Assembly: GCA_043764315.1 (NCBI GenBank)
Contig: JAYUKQ010000071.1
Coordinates: 1 to 50,503, forward strand
Reading direction: 5' to 3'
Length of the DNA: 50,503 bases
Source of the DNA: a bacterium
GTDB lineage: Bacteria; Patescibacteriota; JACMRA01
Positions 45,052-50,503 of the stretch are shown in pieces (positions within the stretch are counted from its first letter, which is position 1; each line of letters begins with the position of its first letter). The position numbers and the translations under genes are program-made. A model generated the notes under the pieces. That model was not told the DNA's origin. It saw nothing but the letters and a program-made list of their open reading frames with translations, and made no database searches.

Positions 45052-48045
45052 TTATATTTTTGATTTTAGCTTTTTATCCACCATTTTGTCCATTACTCGT
45101 AGTAGATATTCTTGAAAATCGATATTCTCGGAATAATTATTCAGTAGCTGCATGTGCGATTCCACACCCGAATACATTTTTTCATCCAAAAGCTTTTTGA
45201 AAGTTAATTTGCGGTTGTGTTTGTCAGCATCTTGCAAAGATTCTTTTTTGGTAGGGTCGCTCGCTATTTCATTGGTGATATTGAGTAAAATCTGCTTGAC
45301 TTTGTCTTCGTCGCTAAAATCAGTCCCAAATCTAGTGTTAAAATCACTCACAATATTTGCTAGTATATCTTTTTCACTTTCAGATTTTTGCCCTGTAGAA
45401 GAGCTTGGAACTGGATTGAGTTCGTCTGATTCTGATAGGCTAATACGAGCGTTAGAGGTGATCTTTTGGTTGCGATACGAGTCAAAATCCACTGACTCTA
45501 GAACATCTTGACTAAGAGTGTCTTCCTTGGTTCCTTCTCCAATAACCTTCTTACTCAACACTTTCAAGAATTGGTGTAATTCCTCAAAAATTGGCTCGTC
45601 AAAAGTGATAATTTGGGATATAAAAGCATAAAACTTGGTGAATAACTTGGCTTTGTTTTTGAATTCGTCGATTTGATCGAGTGGGAGTTTTTTGAGATTT
45701 TCAACAACTGTGTCCATCAAAGCGTGCAATTTTTGTGTTTCTATTCCACTTAATAAGTCTGTTGCAAACTTATGTACCACTAACTCTGTATAGACTCCAA
45801 AATTATCCAGTTGATCCTTGAGATCGTGTAGCCTATTGGGATCGCTTCCAGCTGATAAAACAGTGGTTTGATAGTATGGTTCAAAAGCAGTTTTGATATC
45901 ATCCTCGGTGTTGTAGAAATCTAATACAAAGGTACTTTCTTTGTCCTTGTGAACACGATTGAGCCTTGACAAGGTCTGAACTGCACCCACACCTCCTAGC
46001 TTTTTGTCTACATACATAGTCTGCAAAAGTGGCTGGTCAAAACCTGTCTGATACTTGTTAGCACAGACCAAAAACTGATAATTACCACTCTCAAATTGAT
46101 CAGGAATTTTGGAGGAAGAGAATTGGTTGAGCTTGGATTCGTTCCAGTCCGTTCCGTCTAAACTAACATCCCCACTAAAAGCCGTGATCACATGTAACGG
46201 ATAGTCATTTTCTCGAATGATTTTATTAAAGGCAAAATGGTATTTGACCGCGTTAAGGCGACTGCCACAGACAACCATAGCTTTGGCCCGTCCACCCACC
46301 AGACCCTTGAGATAGACCTGGGAGTAAAAATGACTAAGCATCGTTTGGGCTTTGGTCTCGATAGTGTGACTATTACTCTCCACGAATTTTTTCATCTGAC
46401 TGTTGGCTTTTTTTTTGTCGTATTGGGTGTCATTATTATCCACCACACTTAAGGCATAGTAACTATTGTAAGTAGTGTAATTACTAAGTACATCCAAGAT
46501 AAAACCTTCCTCAATAGCTTGTTTCATCGTATAACTGTCAAAAGCCACAAACTTCCCGTCATCTATTCTTGTGCCAAAAAGCTCCAAGGTTTTGTTCTTG
46601 GGGGTAGCCGTAAAAGCAAAGTAACTAGCATTGGCAAGCATCCTACGACTCTGCAAGGTTTCCAAAACTAATTCTTCGGTGGTGATTTCATCTTCAAACA
46701 ACTCCCCATCCAAAAGCTCGGATTTGATTGTCCTATTCATCTTGGAGATAGTTTCACCGCTGGTGCTAGAATGAGCTTCGTCAATAATTATTGCAAACTT
46801 TTTGGAACCAAGCTCAGTTTTAATACCTTGTTTTTCAAGTTCTTCTATGATATCAATTACTACTGGGAATTTTTGGATGGTGGTGATAATGATTCGTTTA
46901 CCATCTTCCAGAGCTTGTTTGAGCTGCTTGCTACCGTCGGTGATAGTTTCTACCAGTCCATTAGTATGTTCAAATCCCATAATATTATCCCTCAATTGTC
47001 GATCCAAAACCTGTCGATCTGTAATGATCAGAACACTATCAAAAATGTTAGTAGCTCCATCATCTAGGAACAATTTGGCGAGTTGATGTGCCAACCAAGC
47101 GATACTGTTGCTCTTGCCAGAACCTGCACTGTGTTGAATCAAAAACTTTTGTCCTGTGCCTTTGGTTTTGGATTCTAGTAGCAACTTATTGACGACTTGA
47201 AGTTGATGATAACGTGGGAATATCAACTTACGAACAACTTTATCTTTTTTGGTCTCAACTAACAATTGTACAAAATCACTTATCAACTTACTCAAACTTT
47301 GCTTGGTCAAAATTTCTTTCCATAGATAATCTGTCCTGATACCATCGACTGTCGGTGGATTACCCGCTCCACCATTATGACCTTTGTTAAACGGCAAAAA
47401 CCAAGTCTTGTCATCCTCTAGCCGTGTAGTCATATACACCTGCTCGGTATCTACTGCAAAATGTACCAAACACCTCTCAAACTTAAACAGCTCTTCACGG
47501 CTGCTGCGATCGTGCTTGTATTGATTAATTGCATCTTTGACATTTTGCCCTGTGAGTAGATTCTTGAGTTCTAGCGTTGCGATAGGAAGTCCGTTAACCA
47601 AGATTACCATATCCAGTGAGTTCTTGTGCTTGTCACTATAATACACCTGCCGAGCTACTACAAAACTATTACAATTCCACAATTTTTCTAACTCTGGATT
47701 AAAATTACTATTGGGTACAAAATACATTATGCGAAGACTACAATTACGATCTTTGACACCTTTGCGAAGGACATGCAAAACTCCTTTTTCTCGAATTTCT
47801 TTTTGGAGTCGTTCCAAGAATCGCTTTTGATAATCGCTACCATAATTAGCTTTTAACTTCTCCATTTCTAGTTGTTGGCTGGATTCCAAGAACTCAAACA
47901 GTGCCACGGTATCAATAACCTCTTTGCGGTCGTAATGCCCAGAATGCTCTCCAGAGTAGTACTTTTGGTCAAAGCCATTGTTATCAGTTAGGTAATTGGT
48001 GATTAGCTCCTCAAAGCCGATTTCGCGAGTGTTAGTTGTTGGCAT
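45052..48045 (-). CDS. hsdR: Type I restriction enzyme R subunit (HsdR)
   Basis: N-terminal PD-(D/E)xK region (DMVILVNGLPIATLELKN), SF2 motor motifs QHSAGSGKSN (Walker A), IIIDEAHSS (DEAH) and QTLSRLNR, over 997 aa. Confidence 0.95.
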   Translation of the reverse strand: MPTTNTREIGFEELITNYLTDNNGFDQKYYSGEHSGHYDRKEVIDTVALFEFLESSQQLEMEKLKANYGSDYQKRFLERLQKEIREKGVLHVLRKGVKDRNCSLRIMYFVPNSNFNPELEKLWNCNSFVVARQVYYSDKHKNSLDMVILVNGLPIATLELKNLLTGQNVKDAINQYKHDRSSREELFKFERCLVHFAVDTEQVYMTTRLEDDKTWFLPFNKGHNGGAGNPPTVDGIRTDYLWKEILTKQSLSKLISDFVQLLVETKKDKVVRKLIFPRYHQLQVVNKLLLESKTKGTGQKFLIQHSAGSGKSNSIAWLAHQLAKLFLDDGATNIFDSVLIITDRQVLDRQLRDNIMGFEHTNGLVETITDGSKQLKQALEDGKRIIITTIQKFPVVIDIIEELEKQGIKTELGSKKFAIIIDEAHSSTSGETISKMNRTIKSELLDGELFEDEITTEELVLETLQSRRMLANASYFAFTATPKNKTLELFGTRIDDGKFVAFDSYTMKQAIEEGFILDVLSNYTTYNSYYALSVVDNNDTQYDKKKANSQMKKFVESNSHTIETKAQTMLSHFYSQVYLKGLVGGRAKAMVVCGSRLNAVKYHFAFNKIIRENDYPLHVITAFSGDVSLDGTDWNESKLNQFSSSKIPDQFESGNYQFLVCANKYQTGFDQPLLQTMYVDKKLGGVGAVQTLSRLNRVHKDKESTFVLDFYNTEDDIKTAFEPYYQTTVLSAGSDPNRLHDLKDQLDNFGVYTELVVHKFATDLLSGIETQKLHALMDTVVENLKKLPLDQIDEFKNKAKLFTKFYAFISQIITFDEPIFEELHQFLKVLSKKVIGEGTKEDTLSQDVLESVDFDSYRNQKITSNARISLSESDELNPVPSSSTGQKSESEKDILANIVSDFNTRFGTDFSDEDKVKQILLNITNEIASDPTKKESLQDADKHNRKLTFKKLLDEKMYSGVESHMQLLNNYSENIDFQEYLLRVMDKMVDKKLKSKI

Positions 48046-48064
48046 AAATTGTAGATATATAAAA

Positions 48065-49171
48065 TTAATTTGTTGTTATGGGTTTAATTTGATTATTCCC
48101 CTCGTGAGGGGTGGCAGCAAAGCTGACGGGGTGTTCTTTTTTGGATTTCAAATGATTATACAAATTCCCCATAACAATATCCATTGCTTTTTTAATCTCA
48201 ATATCACTATAATGCAAAACCTCCAAACCGTGACCAATCAAATATTCTTCTCGCTTTACATCATATTCACCTTTGAAGTTGTGACTCTCACCATCGATCT
48301 CAACCACAATTCCAAGCTCAGGACAGAAGAAATCTACAATATAATTACCAATTATTTTTTGCCTCTCAAAATCCAGTCCTAATAGTTGTTTGTTTTTAAT
48401 TTTATTCCAAAACAGTACTTCTGATAATACTCCTGCCTTTCTATGCTCTTTAGCATTTTCTTTGAGTTTTGGATTATATGGAAGGTTTTGATGTTTGGAA
48501 TATTTAGCTTTGGTTGGAATGCCAAACACCCCGTCAGTCTGCGACTGCCACCCCTCAAGAGGGGAATTCTCTTCAATATCTTTCTCGGCAAAGGGATTTT
48601 CGTCGTTGATTAATTCAATTCCCATATCATCTCGAAAATCAAAGGTAACTCGTTGTTTGAGATCCTCACCAACCTCCAAAGTCCTTTCAAAGTTGTTTTG
48701 GGCTAGGAGACTATTTTGGTATAAGCCTCGCTTGATTTGGTCTGTGAGATCGTATTTTGACCAGCCGTTACTAATTGATTTTTTGATGTAGAATTCAGCC
48801 TCAAGCGGGTCTTTGCACTTGTCCAAAATTATTTTATTATTACTCCAGCTAATTTGGGCTACCAGTGGATGCCCGATTGTATTGTTGCAATAAGTCTCAT
48901 AAAACTGTCGCATATATTTGATTTCCCTAAATGAAAAACCGCCAACTCCAGCAAACTCTACTTGCAAATCTTTGGATAGATTCTCAACAACTTTGGAACC
49001 CCAATTGGCATTTGTGGCTTTCTCACTGATAATTTTACCAAGATCCCAAGCCATCATCACTTTCTCGCTACTAAAGGCCTTGAGCACATTGTATTGAGCT
49101 TGTTTGACCCTAAGGACTAAGGCATCGAGTGTTGATTTGTATTCTTGTGGTATTAGATTAGACATATTCAT
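48065..49171 (-). CDS. fusion protein: DUF1016 (YhcG) N-terminal domain + DUF559 (Vsr-like) endonuclease domain, joined and terminated by repeat-encoded peptides
   Basis: The first roughly 200 residues carry WGSKVVENLSKDL, GFSFREIKYMRQFY, AQISWSNN, FYIKKSISNGWS and so match DUF1016_N. Later residues SEVLFWNKIKNKQLLGLDFERQKIIGNYIVDFFCPELGIVVEIDGESH...REEYL..HGLEVLHY match DUF559. The usual DUF1016 C-terminal nuclease core is absent. Confidence 0.8.
   Translation of the reverse strand: MNMSNLIPQEYKSTLDALVLRVKQAQYNVLKAFSSEKVMMAWDLGKIISEKATNANWGSKVVENLSKDLQVEFAGVGGFSFREIKYMRQFYETYCNNTIGHPLVAQISWSNNKIILDKCKDPLEAEFYIKKSISNGWSKYDLTDQIKRGLYQNSLLAQNNFERTLEVGEDLKQRVTFDFRDDMGIELINDENPFAEKDIEENSPLEGWQSQTDGVFGIPTKAKYSKHQNLPYNPKLKENAKEHRKAGVLSEVLFWNKIKNKQLLGLDFERQKIIGNYIVDFFCPELGIVVEIDGESHNFKGEYDVKREEYLIGHGLEVLHYSDIEIKKAMDIVMGNLYNHLKSKKEHPVSFAATPHEGNNQIKPITTN
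48095..48133 (-). repeat. GC-rich palindromic repeat, copy A (inverted relative to B-D)
   Basis: attcccctcgtgaggggtggcagcaaagctgacggggtg. Its reverse complement matches copy B except for the 5- versus 7-nt internal spacer and one loop base. It encodes HPVSFAATPHEGN at the C-terminus of the fusion protein. Confidence 0.9.
48527..48567 (+). repeat. GC-rich palindromic repeat, copy B
   Basis: caccccgtcagtctgcgactgccacccctcaagaggggaat. It encodes SPLEGWQSQTDGV at the DUF1016_N/DUF559 junction. Confidence 0.9.
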
Positions 49172-49692
49172 TTAATATCGTTAGTGCGTAAGTTTTCTAG
49201 AAAGCTGCCTTCGTAGTACAGATACTGAAGACAGTTGACGTAGGTACTTACTTTAAAGCCTTTTTGTGTCAATCCAACGATAAGCGAAGTTGCTTGGTTG
49301 ACAGATCCAACGTTCGTAAAAATCATTTTATCATTGTAGAAAACATCGCAACAACAACTTTTAGTTTTACTTTTTTTGGACTTTCCAATGCACAAATCTT
49401 CCTTAATTTTTATCAAATACTCTGAATAGTTTAATTCGTATCCACCTCTTGAGAATTGTAAAACTGAGTTAGCTCTTATGGTAAAGTAGTCTCCACCACT
49501 TTCTTCTAGCTTAGGTTTTATTTTAGAGTTAAAATCAATAGGTTTGTCTATTTGATGTACACTCAAAAAACTCTCTGGATCAATTTGATTTACAGAAATT
49601 ATCTGAAAGGGAGCAATTTGGTATAGTTCAAGCTCAGGATAAGTATAGAATTTGTCTCCTATTTTTATAATTTGTATCGGTTGTGTAGACAT
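49168..49692 (-). CDS. hypothetical protein (ORFan within the Type I R-M locus)
   Basis: 174-aa ORF. Its TGA stop overlaps the ATG of the downstream fusion gene (ATGA), and it starts 14 nt after the hsdS stop. No motif recognised, apart from a Cys cluster SCCCD. Confidence 0.6.
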   Translation of the reverse strand: MSTQPIQIIKIGDKFYTYPELELYQIAPFQIISVNQIDPESFLSVHQIDKPIDFNSKIKPKLEESGGDYFTIRANSVLQFSRGGYELNYSEYLIKIKEDLCIGKSKKSKTKSCCCDVFYNDKMIFTNVGSVNQATSLIVGLTQKGFKVSTYVNCLQYLYYEGSFLENLRTNDIK

Positions 49693-49706
49693 ATTTTGTT
49701 AGTGAT

Positions 49707-50503
49707 TTAGATTAGTATCTTCCCAGTAACGGCATTGTAAATCAGAGACTTTTTGTACTCCAAGATCAACTCAATCTCACGCTGAATCTTGCCGATTGTG
49801 TCATCAATAATAGCATTTTGGGTATCTAGGTAAGCTACGATTTGTTGTTGAGTTGATAAACTAGGTATTAAAATTTTAAATTCCCCTATAACTTGCAAAT
49901 TCAAACCATCTCGTAATCCATCTCCAGCAATTCCTCTAAGTTCTCTGTATGCAGAATCAAGTAAAAAATATAGGTATTTATTATTTAATAAGTTATTTGG
50001 TTTTATTACACCTAATGATTGATTGCAAGTTGTTTTTATGTTCACAAGTGCAACAGTGCCTTTGGTTTTTCCCTGCCCAGCCAAAGCAATTACCAACGAA
50101 CCAGATTCTATCCACTTTGCAGAAGAATTATTTAAACCTAACTCGGTTATATGATCTGTTGCGTAATTAATTATACCTTGATTTACTTCACCAGAGGCTA
50201 GCCAAGGAATTGTTCCATTTGTCCAGTATTCAGGCTTATCCTTTGATGGTGTACCCCCAGAATAAATATTTGAAAATCTTTTGAGATATGTGCAAACCCA
50301 ATCGCTGGGAATATCGCCGAGCCACTCTACTCCAGAGGGTTTTAATACCCCGTCAGCTCCGCTGCCACCCCTTTGGAAATACCCCGTCAGTCTACGACTG
50401 CCACCCCTTTGGAAAAGGGGAATGGTAGTTTTGCCAGTGACGGCGTTGTAGATCAGAGACTTTTTTTGTTCCTGTAGAAGGCTGATAATCTTGGTTTTGT
50501 CCG
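49707..50503 (-). CDS. hsdS: Type I restriction enzyme S subunit (HsdS), 5'-partial: central conserved region, repeat insertion, TRD2, C-terminal conserved region
   Basis: The frame is open from the window end. It reads DKTKIISLLQEQKKSLIYNAVTGKTTI, then repeat-encoded PLFQRGGSRRLTGYFQRGGSGADGVL, then LKPSGVEWLGDIPSDW (TRD start), and ends in LILEYKKSLIYNAVTGKILI. The ORF-track start at 50096 is an internal TTG. Confidence 0.85.
   Translation of the reverse strand, partial: DKTKIISLLQEQKKSLIYNAVTGKTTIPLFQRGGSRRLTGYFQRGGSGADGVLKPSGVEWLGDIPSDWVCTYLKRFSNIYSGGTPSKDKPEYWTNGTIPWLASGEVNQGIINYATDHITELGLNNSSAKWIESGSLVIALAGQGKTKGTVALVNIKTTCNQSLGVIKPNNLLNNKYLYFLLDSAYRELRGIAGDGLRDGLNLQVIGEFKILIPSLSTQQQIVAYLDTQNAIIDDTIGKIQREIELILEYKKSLIYNAVTGKILI
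50346..50379 (+). repeat. GC-rich palindromic repeat, copy C (lacks the closing AGGGG arm)
   Basis: taccccgtcagctccgctgccacccctttggaaa, directly abutting copy D. Confidence 0.85.
50380..50423 (+). repeat. GC-rich palindromic repeat, copy D
   Basis: taccccgtcagtctacgactgccacccctttggaaaaggggaat. It has the same ACCCCGTCAG-N7-CTGCCACCCCT-loop-AGGGGAAT architecture as copy B. Confidence 0.9.

What the first reader, a model, noticed from the sequence alone, without database searches (positions are those of the whole stretch)
50346..50423. Two tandem copies of the same palindromic element inserted in-frame in hsdS at the central conserved region/TRD2 junction
Seen directly: copies C and D share the ACCCCGTCAG-N5/7-CTGCCACCCCT core with copies A and B, 1.8 kb away. 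They are read through as PLFQRGGSRRLTGY-FQRGGSGADGVL, between ...SLIYNAVTGKTTI (the end of the HsdS central conserved helix) and KPSGVEWLGDIPSDW (the start of the second target-recognition domain). The element is translated in different reading frames in different copies: GGSRRLTG in D, GGSGADGV in C, GWQSQTDG in B and, on the opposite strand, PVSFAATP in A. This tolerance is typical of selfish elements that survive inside genes. In Type I enzymes the length of the central spacer region sets the distance between half-sites (established for the TAEL repeats of EcoR124I/II). A roughly 26-residue insertion here could therefore alter specificity or inactivate the S subunit.
Basis: partly seen in the sequence, partly recalled or inferred. 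Interest (0 to 1): 0.65.

Follow-up and report, generated by a model that had tools for sequence, protein, structure and literature searches.

The report
Triplex-type palindromic repeats read through in hsdS
Two copies of a small, widely travelled DNA repeat (two hairpins plus a mirror-image G/C tract, normally found on both sides of DUF559 nuclease genes) sit in-frame in the flexible linker of a restriction-enzyme specificity gene, where they most likely add a harmless floppy loop and do not change what the enzyme recognises.

Summary
CCCCGTCAG-N5/7-CTGCCACCCCT occurs four times in the window (0 expected). Copies C and D lie head-to-tail and are read through in hsdS as IPLFQRGGSRRLTGYFQRGGSGADGVL.

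The repeat is not a local oddity. The same ~46-nt two-hairpin element occurs in more than 15 phyla, and both hairpins covary. In 66 of 70 metagenomic DUF559 loci, a copy lies within 200 nt of the gene in the expected inverted orientation. The window's A and B flank a DUF559 domain in the same way.

Its 5' flank covaries with hairpin 2 as a mirror repeat, giving only G.G-C, T.A-T and A.A-T triads. This is the design of the known BoxC/PIT/TM intrastrand-triplex repeats, here with an extra hairpin in the second loop.

None of 120 HsdS homologues has the insert. It lies after the central helix, and AlphaFold predicts it disordered (pLDDT <50). S-subunit halves work even when unjoined, so a change of spacer length is unlikely.

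A third copy precedes TRD1 just outside the window. Insertion therefore cannot be told apart from duplication of an element-led half-gene.

The finding itself is a new variant of a known kind. The DUF559 link appears to be undescribed.

The parts
50344..50377 (+). Element copy C. It has the head AATACCCC, hairpin 1 (CAGC-TCC-GCTG) and the 5' arm of hairpin 2 (CCCCTTT). The 3' arm is missing because copy D starts here. Translated on the minus strand as FQRGGSGADGV(L).
   Evidence: Exact pattern hit at 50348-50372, sequence, translation. The covariance model does not report it as a full copy.
50378..50423 (+). Element copy D, complete. It has the head AATACCCC, hairpin 1 (CAGTC-TAC-GACTG), CCA, hairpin 2 (CCCCTTT-GGA-AAAGGGG) and the tail AAT. 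Translated on the minus strand as IPLFQRGGSRRLTGY.
   Evidence: Model R1 hit at 50376-50423, 65.6 bits, E=3e-17. The DNA fold shows both hairpins. Translation.
49707..50503 (-). 3' part of hsdS: end of the central conserved helix, the 27-aa element-derived linker, TRD2 and the distal conserved helix. The gene runs off the window. The full gene is 495 aa on the source contig L121 (8499-9986).
   Evidence: Pfam Methylase_S, E=5.7e-23. Alignment with 21 homologues. Source contigs. PDB 1YF2 alignment starting at LGDIPSDW. AlphaFold model.
48523..48567 (+). Element copy B, complete. It lies immediately upstream (in gene orientation) of the DUF559 domain, with its head facing the domain. Translated as SPLEGWQSQTDGVF.
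   Evidence: R1 hit, 58.7 bits; exact pattern; ORF translation.
48095..48137 (-). Element copy A, complete, immediately downstream of the DUF559 domain and inverted relative to B. Translated as EHPVSFAATPHEGN at the C-terminus of the 368-aa ORF.
   Evidence: R1 hit, 46.0 bits. Inverted-repeat pairs I2 and I7. ORF translation.
48161..48484 (-). DUF559 (Vsr-like PD-(D/E)XK fold) nuclease domain between B and A. The conserved D...ExDG..H residues are intact.
   Evidence: Pfam DUF559, E=1.6e-25. NCBIfam PRK09767. PDB 3HRL, E=8.8e-12. Invariant columns in alignment A4.
48065..49171 (-). 368-aa ORF consisting of DUF1016_N followed by the cassette [B]-DUF559-[A]. The cassette takes the place of the usual C-terminal nuclease domain of DUF1016.
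   Evidence: Pfam, ORF list.
45052..48045 (-). hsdR, 997 aa and intact. It is part of the same Type I R-M operon that the elements invaded.
   Evidence: Pfam HSDR_N, ResIII, SWI2_SNF2 and T1R_D3-like.

Best explanation
C and D are two head-to-tail units of a ~46-nt dispersed DNA repeat. The repeat reads x-y-A-CCCC / hairpin 1 (variable, closed by G-C) / A-CCCC-T-p-q / loop / q'-p'-A-GGGG / AAT.

On the complementary strand, which is the hsdS coding strand here, it reads C-stem, loop, G-stem 1, hairpin 1, G-stem 2. G-stem 2 is the mirror image of G-stem 1. This is the architecture of the known BoxC/PIT/TM purine-motif intrastrand-triplex repeats, with an extra hairpin placed in the second loop.

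Complete copies of this family normally flank DUF559 nuclease genes as inverted pairs, much as REPs flank RAYT genes. This CPR (Patescibacteria) genome carries two such DUF559 cassettes inside one Type I R-M operon. Solo copies occur only in that operon: seven copies in 3.2 kb of the source contig and none in the other ~48 kb of the window.

Shown: the copies in hsdS lie in the linker between the central helix and TRD2, keep the frame, and are translated as a 27-residue segment predicted to be disordered.

Inferred:
- The loop is tolerated, and the S subunit keeps its bipartite specificity and spacer.
- The copies arrived by local spread from, or together with, the DUF559 cassettes.
- The DUF559 nuclease recognises the folded single-stranded element and is what propagates or maintains it.

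Not resolved: whether C/D were inserted into an intact hsdS, or were inherited when an element-led half-gene was duplicated.
For: Repeat identity and non-randomness.

These include Acidobacteriota, Planctomycetota, Cyanobacteriota, Bacteroidota, Chlorobiota, Pseudomonadota, Bacillota, Cloacimonadota, Patescibacteria, Deinococcota and others.

Hairpins are selected:
- Hairpin 1 pair 18-26 is CG65/GC51/AU10/UA8.
- In an independent set aligned by the covariance model, pair 18-50 is GC46/CG26/UA19/AU12 and pair 64-77 is CG123/UA14. Of all cells, 94.8% pair, and 0 of 500 shuffles reach this.

DUF559 link:
- Starting from elements: all DUF559 hits in 843 kb of element-bearing loci lie 30-183 nt from an element.
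- Starting from DUF559: in 80 metagenomic DUF559 loci the model gives 405 hits. They fall mainly as a minus-strand copy just upstream and a plus-strand copy just downstream.
- A strict detector finds at least one canonical-orientation copy in 66 of 70 assessable loci and both in 40. Density is 5.4 per kb near the gene against 0.15 per kb farther away.

Mirror/triplex rule:
- Flank position y is C with a C-G pair (98 cases) or T with a T-A pair (13).
- In the independent set, 135/137 (y) and 127/131 (x) are canonical purine-motif triads, and no shuffle reaches this.
- Distant DUF559 genes (33-40% identity) in Azospirillum, Sphingomonas, Deinococcus, Pseudanabaena, Neisseria and Synechocystis carry a C-tract hairpin. 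In five of these six it has a perfect mirror flank 2-3 nt away, 8/8 to 12/12 positions; in Synechocystis the match is 6/7.
- This design forms a stable triplex in vitro by CD and NMR (Holder 2015, PMC4666352).

HsdS:
- 0 of 120 homologues have the peptide. The AVT-to-WLG linker has a median of 15 aa in homologues against 50 here.
- AlphaFold gives pLDDT 88.5 and pTM 0.84, with helix residues 2-21 and TRD2 above 90 and the insert below 50.
- The hsdM, hsdS and hsdR ORFs are intact.
- The halves of an S subunit need not be joined (PMC3874165).
Against: No close hsdS allele without the insert exists in the databases searched; the best hit is 46-55% identical. An empty site was therefore not seen.

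No target-site duplication, empty/filled pair or other direct trace of transposition was found for any copy.

The DUF559-element link is a strong association, but no activity of DUF559 on such DNA is known.

The mirror-rule covariation rests on four haplotypes (CC, CT, AC, AT). Part of it could therefore be common descent.

Holder et al. could not detect the E. coli triplex in vivo by DMS footprinting.

AlphaFold disorder does not prove function. No methylome is available to show that this S subunit works.

With the element removed, the linker would be about 6 residues shorter than in homologues. The event was therefore not a clean insertion.
Confidence: 0.7

Rival explanations
1. Module duplication rather than insertion. 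The ancestral gene was a half-size hsdS (one TRD plus one helix) with an element in its 5' end. Tandem duplication and fusion of two such element-led half-genes produced the present full-length hsdS. The element at the junction would then be the former 5' leader of the second half, and D an extra tandem unit.
For: A third copy, G, sits at the equivalent place before TRD1, in the same orientation and frame (IPLFQRGGSEADGVL; L121 8577-8622).

G and C differ by about one base. Each is followed by TGGCTCGGCGATATTCCCAGCGA(C/T)TGGG, 28/29 identical.

The 'central' helix ends AVTGKTT-I, like the C-terminal end AVTGKILI*, not like the AVT(K/R)GLxPxV of homologues. The last ~45 nt are about 88% identical.

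A decayed element followed by KPSGLEW codons also precedes DUF559#1.

S halves can work as separate chains.
Against: Gene conversion between the two halves of one hsdS would give the same local identities, and homologues also have internally repeated N-terminal and TRD2-start motifs. No half-size relative of this hsdS was found. This rival does not change what the element is.
Confidence: 0.35
2. One reading: the ~27-residue insertion changes the distance or angle between the two TRDs, as the TAEL repeats do, or inactivates the S subunit.
For: The insert adds about 21 residues net to a linker that is about 10 residues in homologues. No experimental data exist for this protein.
Against: TAEL repeats act by lengthening the D1 helix. 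This insert lies after the helix and is predicted disordered, with confident flanking domains. Unjoined halves and circular permutants of S subunits are active. The frame is kept through three element copies while hsdM and hsdR stay intact. This argues for continued selection on the gene.
Confidence: 0.12
3. Variation device. The direct, in-frame repeats G and C/D, together with a triplex-prone coding strand, promote slippage or recombination. This would delete TRD1 plus the central helix in-frame and give a half-size S subunit with a palindromic specificity, or would otherwise destabilise hsdS as a switch.
For: G and C/D are direct repeats in the same frame flanking TRD1 and the central helix. 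TM-type repeats are linked to local genomic instability in E. coli (PMC4666352). Truncated S subunits give new palindromic specificities. The L122 scaffold has a gap exactly over the TRD1 core.
Against: All three assemblies show the same arrangement at C/D and G. No deletion junction was seen and no recombinase is in the locus. The L122 gap is a run of N, not a variant.
Confidence: 0.08
4. The segment is an assembly artefact or a conserved native HsdS peptide.
For: None beyond its repetitive nature.
Against: The sequence is identical in independent assemblies from three samples made with different assemblers. It is absent from 120 homologues.
Confidence: 0.02

Closest known systems
BoxC / PIT / TM(ECO) intrastrand-triplex repeats (Hoyne et al. 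2000; Holder et al. 2015, PMC4666352)
   Same: Both are G/C-rich dispersed repeats built as C-stem, loop, G-stem, loop and a mirror-image G-stem. The only triads are G.G-C, T.A-T and A.A-T (purine motif). Copies occur singly and as inverted pairs and are found in many bacterial phyla. The distant DUF559 flanks found here match the published pattern CCCTCNCCC-N3-6-GGGNGAGGG-N3-GGGNGAGGG closely.
   Different: The window's family has 7 triads, not 9. Its second loop is a structured 13-25-nt hairpin instead of 3 nt, so the published searches (loops of at most 6 or 10 nt) would miss it. TM(ECO) was reported as always intergenic and with no associated mobility gene. Here copies are translated inside genes, and the family flanks DUF559 genes.
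REP/REPIN elements with their RAYT transposase ('REPtron')
   Same: Short hairpin repeats occur in many solo copies and in inverted pairs, and inverted copies flank a single nuclease-type gene. Stems covary while the flanking motifs are conserved.
   Different: The flanked gene is a DUF559 / Vsr-like PD-(D/E)XK-fold protein, not an HUH tyrosine transposase. There is no GTAG tag. The element carries a mirror-repeat (triplex) feature. Its sequence is conserved across phyla, whereas REPs are lineage-specific.
Rickettsia palindromic elements and other intragenic REPs (Ogata et al. 2000; Di Nocera et al. 2013, PMC3733652)
   Same: Palindromic repeats are inserted in-frame in functional genes, often as dimers encoding 20-30 residues, and are often open in several frames. 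N-terminal and internal positions both occur.
   Different: The sequence family differs. RPE-4/6 and other CGTC-tagged REPs have 8-9-bp stems and an unpaired CGTC tag. Here CGTC is part of the base of hairpin 1 (G11-C57 closing pair). The host is a CPR bacterium, and the element is not lineage-restricted.
TAEL repeat-number variation in EcoR124I/II HsdS
   Same: Both are length changes in the central part of a Type I S subunit.
   Different: TAEL repeats lie within the coiled-coil helix and shift the TRDs by about one base pair per repeat. This insert lies outside the helix, in a linker.

Membership tests
BoxC/PIT/TM intrastrand-triplex repeat | A Watson-Crick hairpin made of a C-rich and a G-rich stem | tested here: met
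   Hairpin 2 (CCCCTpq / q'p'AGGGG) is present in 117 of 141 exact-core copies. 99% of its cells pair in the independent alignment. It is predicted in the window copies.
BoxC/PIT/TM intrastrand-triplex repeat | A second G-rich stem that mirrors the first, giving only G.G-C, T.A-T or A.A-T triads | tested here: met
   135/137 and 127/131 canonical triads at the two variable positions, with shuffles never reaching this. For window copy D, GGGGTAT lies against AAAGGGG and all 7 triads are canonical (sequence).
BoxC/PIT/TM intrastrand-triplex repeat | Short loops (1-6 nt in ITxF, 0-10 nt in Hoyne) and a 9-nt stem of the form CCCTCNCCC | tested here: not met
   The second loop is T plus a 13-25-nt hairpin plus A/AC, and the stem is 7 nt. 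Distant DUF559 flanks do have 2-3-nt linkers and 8-12-nt stems.
BoxC/PIT/TM intrastrand-triplex repeat | Triplex formation by the isolated strand (CD, NMR) | not testable with these tools
   Only shown for TM(ECO) oligonucleotides in PMC4666352.
CGTC-tagged REP (Di Nocera 2013) | An unpaired terminal CGTC tag, an 8-9-bp stem starting with A-T pairs and a CCA tail | tested here: not met
   CCA follows hairpin 1 in 148 of 150 copies. However, G of the 'tag' pairs with C57 (134/136), position 12 pairs with position 56 in 73/136, the tag reads GTC/GCC/GGN, and stems are 4-7 bp. Family description.
REP/REPIN-RAYT system | A RAYT (IS200/IS605-like HUH) gene flanked by the repeats, and a GTAG tag | tested here: not met
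   There is no such gene in the window or in the 20.5-kb source locus. The flanked gene is DUF559.
MITE | Terminal inverted repeats with target-site duplication, derived from an IS | tested here: inconclusive
   No direct repeat was seen at the outer ends of the A/B cassette or of C/D (sequence). There are no IS-type transposases nearby. No empty site was available.
Type I R-M specificity subunit (HsdS) | TRD - conserved helix - TRD - conserved helix architecture, with hsdM and hsdR in the locus | tested here: met
   Pfam Methylase_S; full 495-aa ORF with two TRDs; PDB 1YF2 and 7BST matches; hsdM and hsdR present.
Phase-variable (shufflon-type) hsdS locus | Extra inverted hsdS copies plus a site-specific recombinase | tested here: not met
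   No recombinase and no second hsdS in the 20.5 kb around the gene. Only a short hsdS-like remnant (KPSGLEW) lies upstream of DUF559#1.

The most novel reading that the evidence does not exclude
DUF559 (Vsr-like) nucleases are the missing cognate enzymes of the BoxC/PIT/TM class of intrastrand-triplex repeats. The gene plus its inverted, triplex-forming flanks would form a REPtron-like selfish unit that has spread across more than 15 bacterial phyla. Solo repeats, including the translated ones in this hsdS, would be its non-autonomous offspring, and the folded single-stranded triplex would be what the nuclease recognises. The 2015 survey of these motifs explicitly found no associated mobility function. 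I found no paper linking DUF559 to them.
Probability: 0.4. Interest if true: 0.8.

Novelty: new variant of a known kind. Interest (0 to 1): 0.6.

Why it matters
For this genome, the practical message is that the hsdS gene is probably functional despite three repeat-derived segments. The insert should not be annotated as a disruption.

More broadly, BoxC/PIT/TM triplex repeats have been known since the 1990s. They were shown to fold in vitro and were linked to genome instability, but had no known origin, function or partner protein. DUF559 is a large family of unknown function.

The association found here is near-obligate, orientation-specific and seen across phyla. It gives both orphans a testable partner, and it suggests a REP/RAYT-like system built on a different nuclease fold and a triple-helical DNA signal.

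It also shows that such repeats can live inside coding sequence, and that published triplex searches miss variants whose loop is itself a hairpin.

Tried and rejected
- Rfam scan of 47900-50503 at E<=10: only sub-threshold chance hits. 'drum' scored 20.7 bits against a 43-bit cut-off, overlapping B. The element is not a curated RNA family.
- CGTC-REP membership: an attractive lead from PMC3733652, but the tag is paired and the stems are short. The Azospirillum, Neisseria and Sphingomonas DUF559 flanks also bear no resemblance to the CGTC-1/dRS3-type repeat as I recall it (CGTC-ATTCCC...GGGAAT-CCA). The paper's Figure 2 consensus was not available to me.
- My first strict regex for elements around DUF559 found few. 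It was tied to the GTCAG...CTGCC variant of hairpin 1. Reading the flanks and using a generalised detector fixed this.
- The L122 'deletion' in hsdS is a scaffold gap of Ns, not a variant.
- Search for an insert-free allele: no HsdS above 55% identity exists in the protein collection. A relative with 85% identical DnaA exists (P0122), but its hsdS region could not be reached and no close HsdS was found.
- Top-strand pyrimidine-motif triplex: rejected as the main reading. It needs C+ protonation and cannot accommodate the invariant A opposite the T-A pair. The bottom-strand purine motif fits all classes.
- G-quadruplex: there are only two or three G4 tracts per element or strand.
- Literature searches for DUF559 with repeats, for Vsr with REP, and for the element sequence itself returned nothing relevant.
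- No target-site duplications were evident at element ends by inspection.
Full report
**1. The observation**

The region was read directly. The pattern CCCCGTCAG-N3-9-CTGCCACCCCT matches exactly four times in 50.5 kb. A is at 48107-48131 on the minus strand, B at 48529-48555, C at 50348-50372 and D at 50382-50408 on the plus strand. No match occurred in 100 dinucleotide-preserving shuffles. Each half-motif, allowing one mismatch, is found only at these four places.

On the minus strand the hsdS frame is open through both copies. It reads ...LLQEQKKSLIYNAVTGKTT IPLFQRGGSRRLTGY FQRGGSGADGVL KPSGVEWLGDIPSDW.... The peptides quoted for A and B are in the 368-aa ORF 48065-49171.

Three details need correcting. 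The translated insert is 27 codons (50343-50423). C is a truncated unit whose second hairpin lacks its 3' arm, because D begins there. C and D share a frame up to the hairpin-1 loop and differ after it only because that loop is 5 versus 7 nt.

**2. The wider locus**

The 174-aa ORF next to hsdS was used to recover the source contigs, which come from three metagenome assemblies (L121-L123). In gene orientation the operon reads:
- hsdM
- DUF559#1 (184 aa)
- hsdS (495 aa, intact)
- ORF174
- DUF1016_N fused to DUF559#2
- hsdR

L121 holds seven exact copies within 3.2 kb:
- a tandem pair E-F after DUF559#1;
- G inside the N-terminal extension of HsdS (IPLFQRGGSEADGVL, just before the start of TRD1);
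- D-C at the central-helix/TRD2 junction;
- B and A around DUF559#2.

There are also decayed remnants at the end of hsdM and in front of DUF559#1. A covariance model of the element finds no copy in the other ~48 kb of the window or in the rest of L121.

The identical arrangement in independent assemblies rules out an artefact. The apparent difference in L122 is a run of N. By DnaA similarity the host is a member of the Patescibacteria/CPR. GC content is about 32%, with the hsdR region somewhat higher.

**3. What the element is**

The hits come from more than 15 phyla. Aligning them shows a conserved design: (A)ACCA-CCCC, then G-[hairpin 1]-C, then A-CCCC-T-CC-loop-GG-A-GGGG-AAT.

Hairpin 1 has a variable sequence but keeps pairing. 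Its pair 18-26 reads CG65/GC51/AU10/UA8. Hairpin 2 is intact in 117 of 141 copies, with covarying extension pairs. No Rfam family matches.

I built a covariance model (R1) from 32 length-matched copies.

**4. Link to DUF559**

In the element-bearing genome loci, every DUF559 hit in 843 kb lies 30-183 nt from an element.

For the reverse test, I searched metagenome contigs with an alignment of these DUF559 domains and kept 80 loci (52-72% identity). R1 gives 405 hits in these 256 kb. The typical picture is a minus-strand copy ending a few tens of nucleotides upstream of the gene and a plus-strand copy starting just downstream. Further tandem copies are common.

A strict sequence detector gave these counts:

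| Measure | Result |
|---|---|
| Loci assessable on both sides | 70 |
| At least one copy in canonical orientation | 66 |
| Both copies in canonical orientation | 40 |
| Element density within 200 nt of the gene | 5.4 per kb |
| Element density farther away | 0.15 per kb |

Reading the flanks shows that GTCAG...CTGCC is only one of many hairpin-1 variants. The window's A and B flank DUF559#2 in exactly this geometry.

This parallels REPs flanking RAYT genes, but the protein is a Vsr-like PD-(D/E)XK-fold domain. The nearest structure is 3HRL, and the clan includes Vsr and a homing endonuclease (PMC3424549).

**5. The mirror rule**

The two bases 5' of A-CCCC covary with the two pairs of hairpin 2 next to CCCCT/AGGGG. 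C goes with C-G. T or A goes with T-A.
- In the exact-core set: C with C-G in 98 cases and T with T-A in 13, with three exceptions.
- In the independent model-aligned set: 135/137 and 127/131 conform. All four haplotypes (CC, CT, AC, AT) are present, and no shuffle reaches the observed value.

Read on the complementary strand, this is a G-stem (GGGG-T-y'-x') that mirrors the G-arm of hairpin 2. It gives only G.G-C, T.A-T and A.A-T triads, which is the antiparallel purine motif.

Distant DUF559 genes (33-40% identity) on replicons of Azospirillum, Sphingomonas, Deinococcus, Pseudanabaena, Neisseria and Synechocystis are flanked by different sequences with the same logic. Each has a C-tract hairpin. 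In five of the six it has a perfect mirror pyrimidine tract 2-3 nt away, matching at 8/8 to 12/12 positions with shuffles reaching this in at most 0.5% of trials; the Synechocystis flank matches at 6/7 (2.5%).

This is the published BoxC/PIT/TM motif, CCCTCNCCC-N3-6-GGGNGAGGG-N3-GGGNGAGGG. It folds into a stable intrastrand triplex by CD and NMR, occurs thousands of times in bacteria, and is associated with local instability. Its authors found no associated mobility function (PMC4666352).

The window's family is therefore a variant of that class in which the second loop has become a hairpin. The triplex itself is inferred here, not shown. The covariation rests on few haplotypes, and the E. coli motif was not detected as a triplex in vivo.

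**6. Consequence for HsdS**

The best homologues are only 46-55% identical. None of 21 aligned or 120 scanned homologues has the insert or any element-derived peptide. The helix-to-TRD2 linker has a median of 15 residues by one measure, against 50 here.

TRD2 aligns to 1YF2 from LGDIPSDW onward. An AlphaFold model of the window fragment (pLDDT 88.5, pTM 0.84) has a confident central helix (residues 2-21), a confident TRD2 and a confident distal helix. Residues 32-49 of the insert score below 50.

The TAEL repeats that set the spacer in EcoR124I/II lie inside the D1 helix. N- and C-terminal halves of EcoDXXI HsdS restore wild-type specificity when co-expressed, and S subunits tolerate circular permutation (PMC3874165).

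The most likely effect is therefore a tolerated flexible loop. The preserved frame through three copies, with hsdM and hsdR intact, fits continued selection. The element's consensus is open in five of six frames and the C+D dimer in three of six. About a fifth of copies elsewhere lie in long open frames, although some of those ORFs may be spurious. Intragenic REPs are a known phenomenon (PMC3733652).

**7. History of the copies**

G and C are nearly identical, and each is followed by a 29-nt stretch that is 28/29 identical. The central helix ends like the C-terminal one (AVTGK..I), with about 88% identity over the last 45 nt. The gene thus looks like two element-led half modules.

Duplication and fusion of such a module, or insertion followed by gene conversion, would both give this picture, and I cannot separate them. 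Without the element the linker would be about six residues shorter than usual, so the event was not a clean insertion.

The DUF559#2 cassette replaces the C-terminal domain of a DUF1016 gene. DUF559#1 is preceded by hsdS-like codons (KPSGLEW). Together these show repeated element-associated rearrangement in this operon.

**8. Verdict**

The selfish-repeat reading is right in kind. The proposed effect on specificity is unlikely.

As an in-frame repeat insertion it is a new variant of a known kind: intragenic REP/RPE-like, and BoxC/PIT/TM-like in design. The more interesting result is the orientation-specific, cross-phylum coupling of triplex-type repeats to DUF559 genes. I did not find this described in the searchable literature. 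It remains an association until tested biochemically.

Noticed in passing
window 48065-49171 (-): The 368-aa ORF is DUF1016_N fused to a DUF559 domain bracketed by elements B and A. The cassette stands where the C-terminal PD-(D/E)XK domain of DUF1016 normally is. There is no in-frame ATG between B and the DUF559 core, so this DUF559 is expressed only as a fusion, if at all.
   Followed up: partly
L121 7910-8464 (just beyond the window end, between hsdM and hsdS): A second DUF559 gene (184 aa, 58% identical to the first) is followed by a tandem element pair E-F with the same truncated-plus-complete structure as C-D. It is preceded by a decayed element plus codons KPSGLEW that resemble the start of an HsdS TRD.
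   Followed up: partly
L121 8577-8622 (hsdS N-terminus, outside the window): A third in-frame element copy, G, lies in a ~40-residue N-terminal extension of HsdS that homologues lack. No canonical start codon lies between it and TRD1, so it is probably translated.
   Followed up: partly
L122 versus L121 8687-9122: In one of the three assemblies the scaffold has a 100-N gap, with 336 nt missing, exactly over the variable core of TRD1. This could reflect strain heterogeneity of TRD1 in that sample.
   Followed up: no
window 49168-49692 (-): A 174-aa ORF between hsdS and the DUF1016 gene has no Pfam or NCBIfam match and contains a Cys cluster (CCCD). It is conserved in all source contigs as part of the R-M operon.
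   Followed up: no
window 49720-49761 and 50431-50472: The DNA encoding the ends of the distal and central conserved helices is 83% identical over 42 nt, and about 88% over the last 45 nt. The central helix ends like a C-terminus (AVTGK..I) rather than like the AVT(K/R)GL of homologues.
   Followed up: yes
L135, L156, L162 (metagenomic DUF559 loci): Within one DUF559 unit, the upstream and downstream elements can carry different flank/stem haplotypes (CT|TC upstream, AC|CT downstream). Each still obeys the mirror rule.
   Followed up: partly
L175 2357-2648; also L134, L168, L183, L150: Downstream of some DUF559 genes the element forms arrays of up to seven complete units with a 42-49-nt period. 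Tandem copies like C-D are therefore typical of the family.
   Followed up: no
L204-L217 (IMG/VR viral contigs): The exact core pattern also occurs in 14 viral contigs. This may bear on how the element moves between phyla.
   Followed up: no
L225 (E. coli ycjD region): The E. coli DUF559 gene ycjD has only a decayed hairpin remnant downstream (CACCCTCTCCCTGAAAGAGCGAGGGGG) and no intact TM(ECO) copy within 300 nt, although E. coli K-12 carries 23 TM(ECO) copies elsewhere.
   Followed up: partly
window 46001-48000: The hsdR region has a higher GC content (0.396) than the rest of the window (about 0.30-0.36). This is consistent with the R-M operon being horizontally acquired.
   Followed up: no
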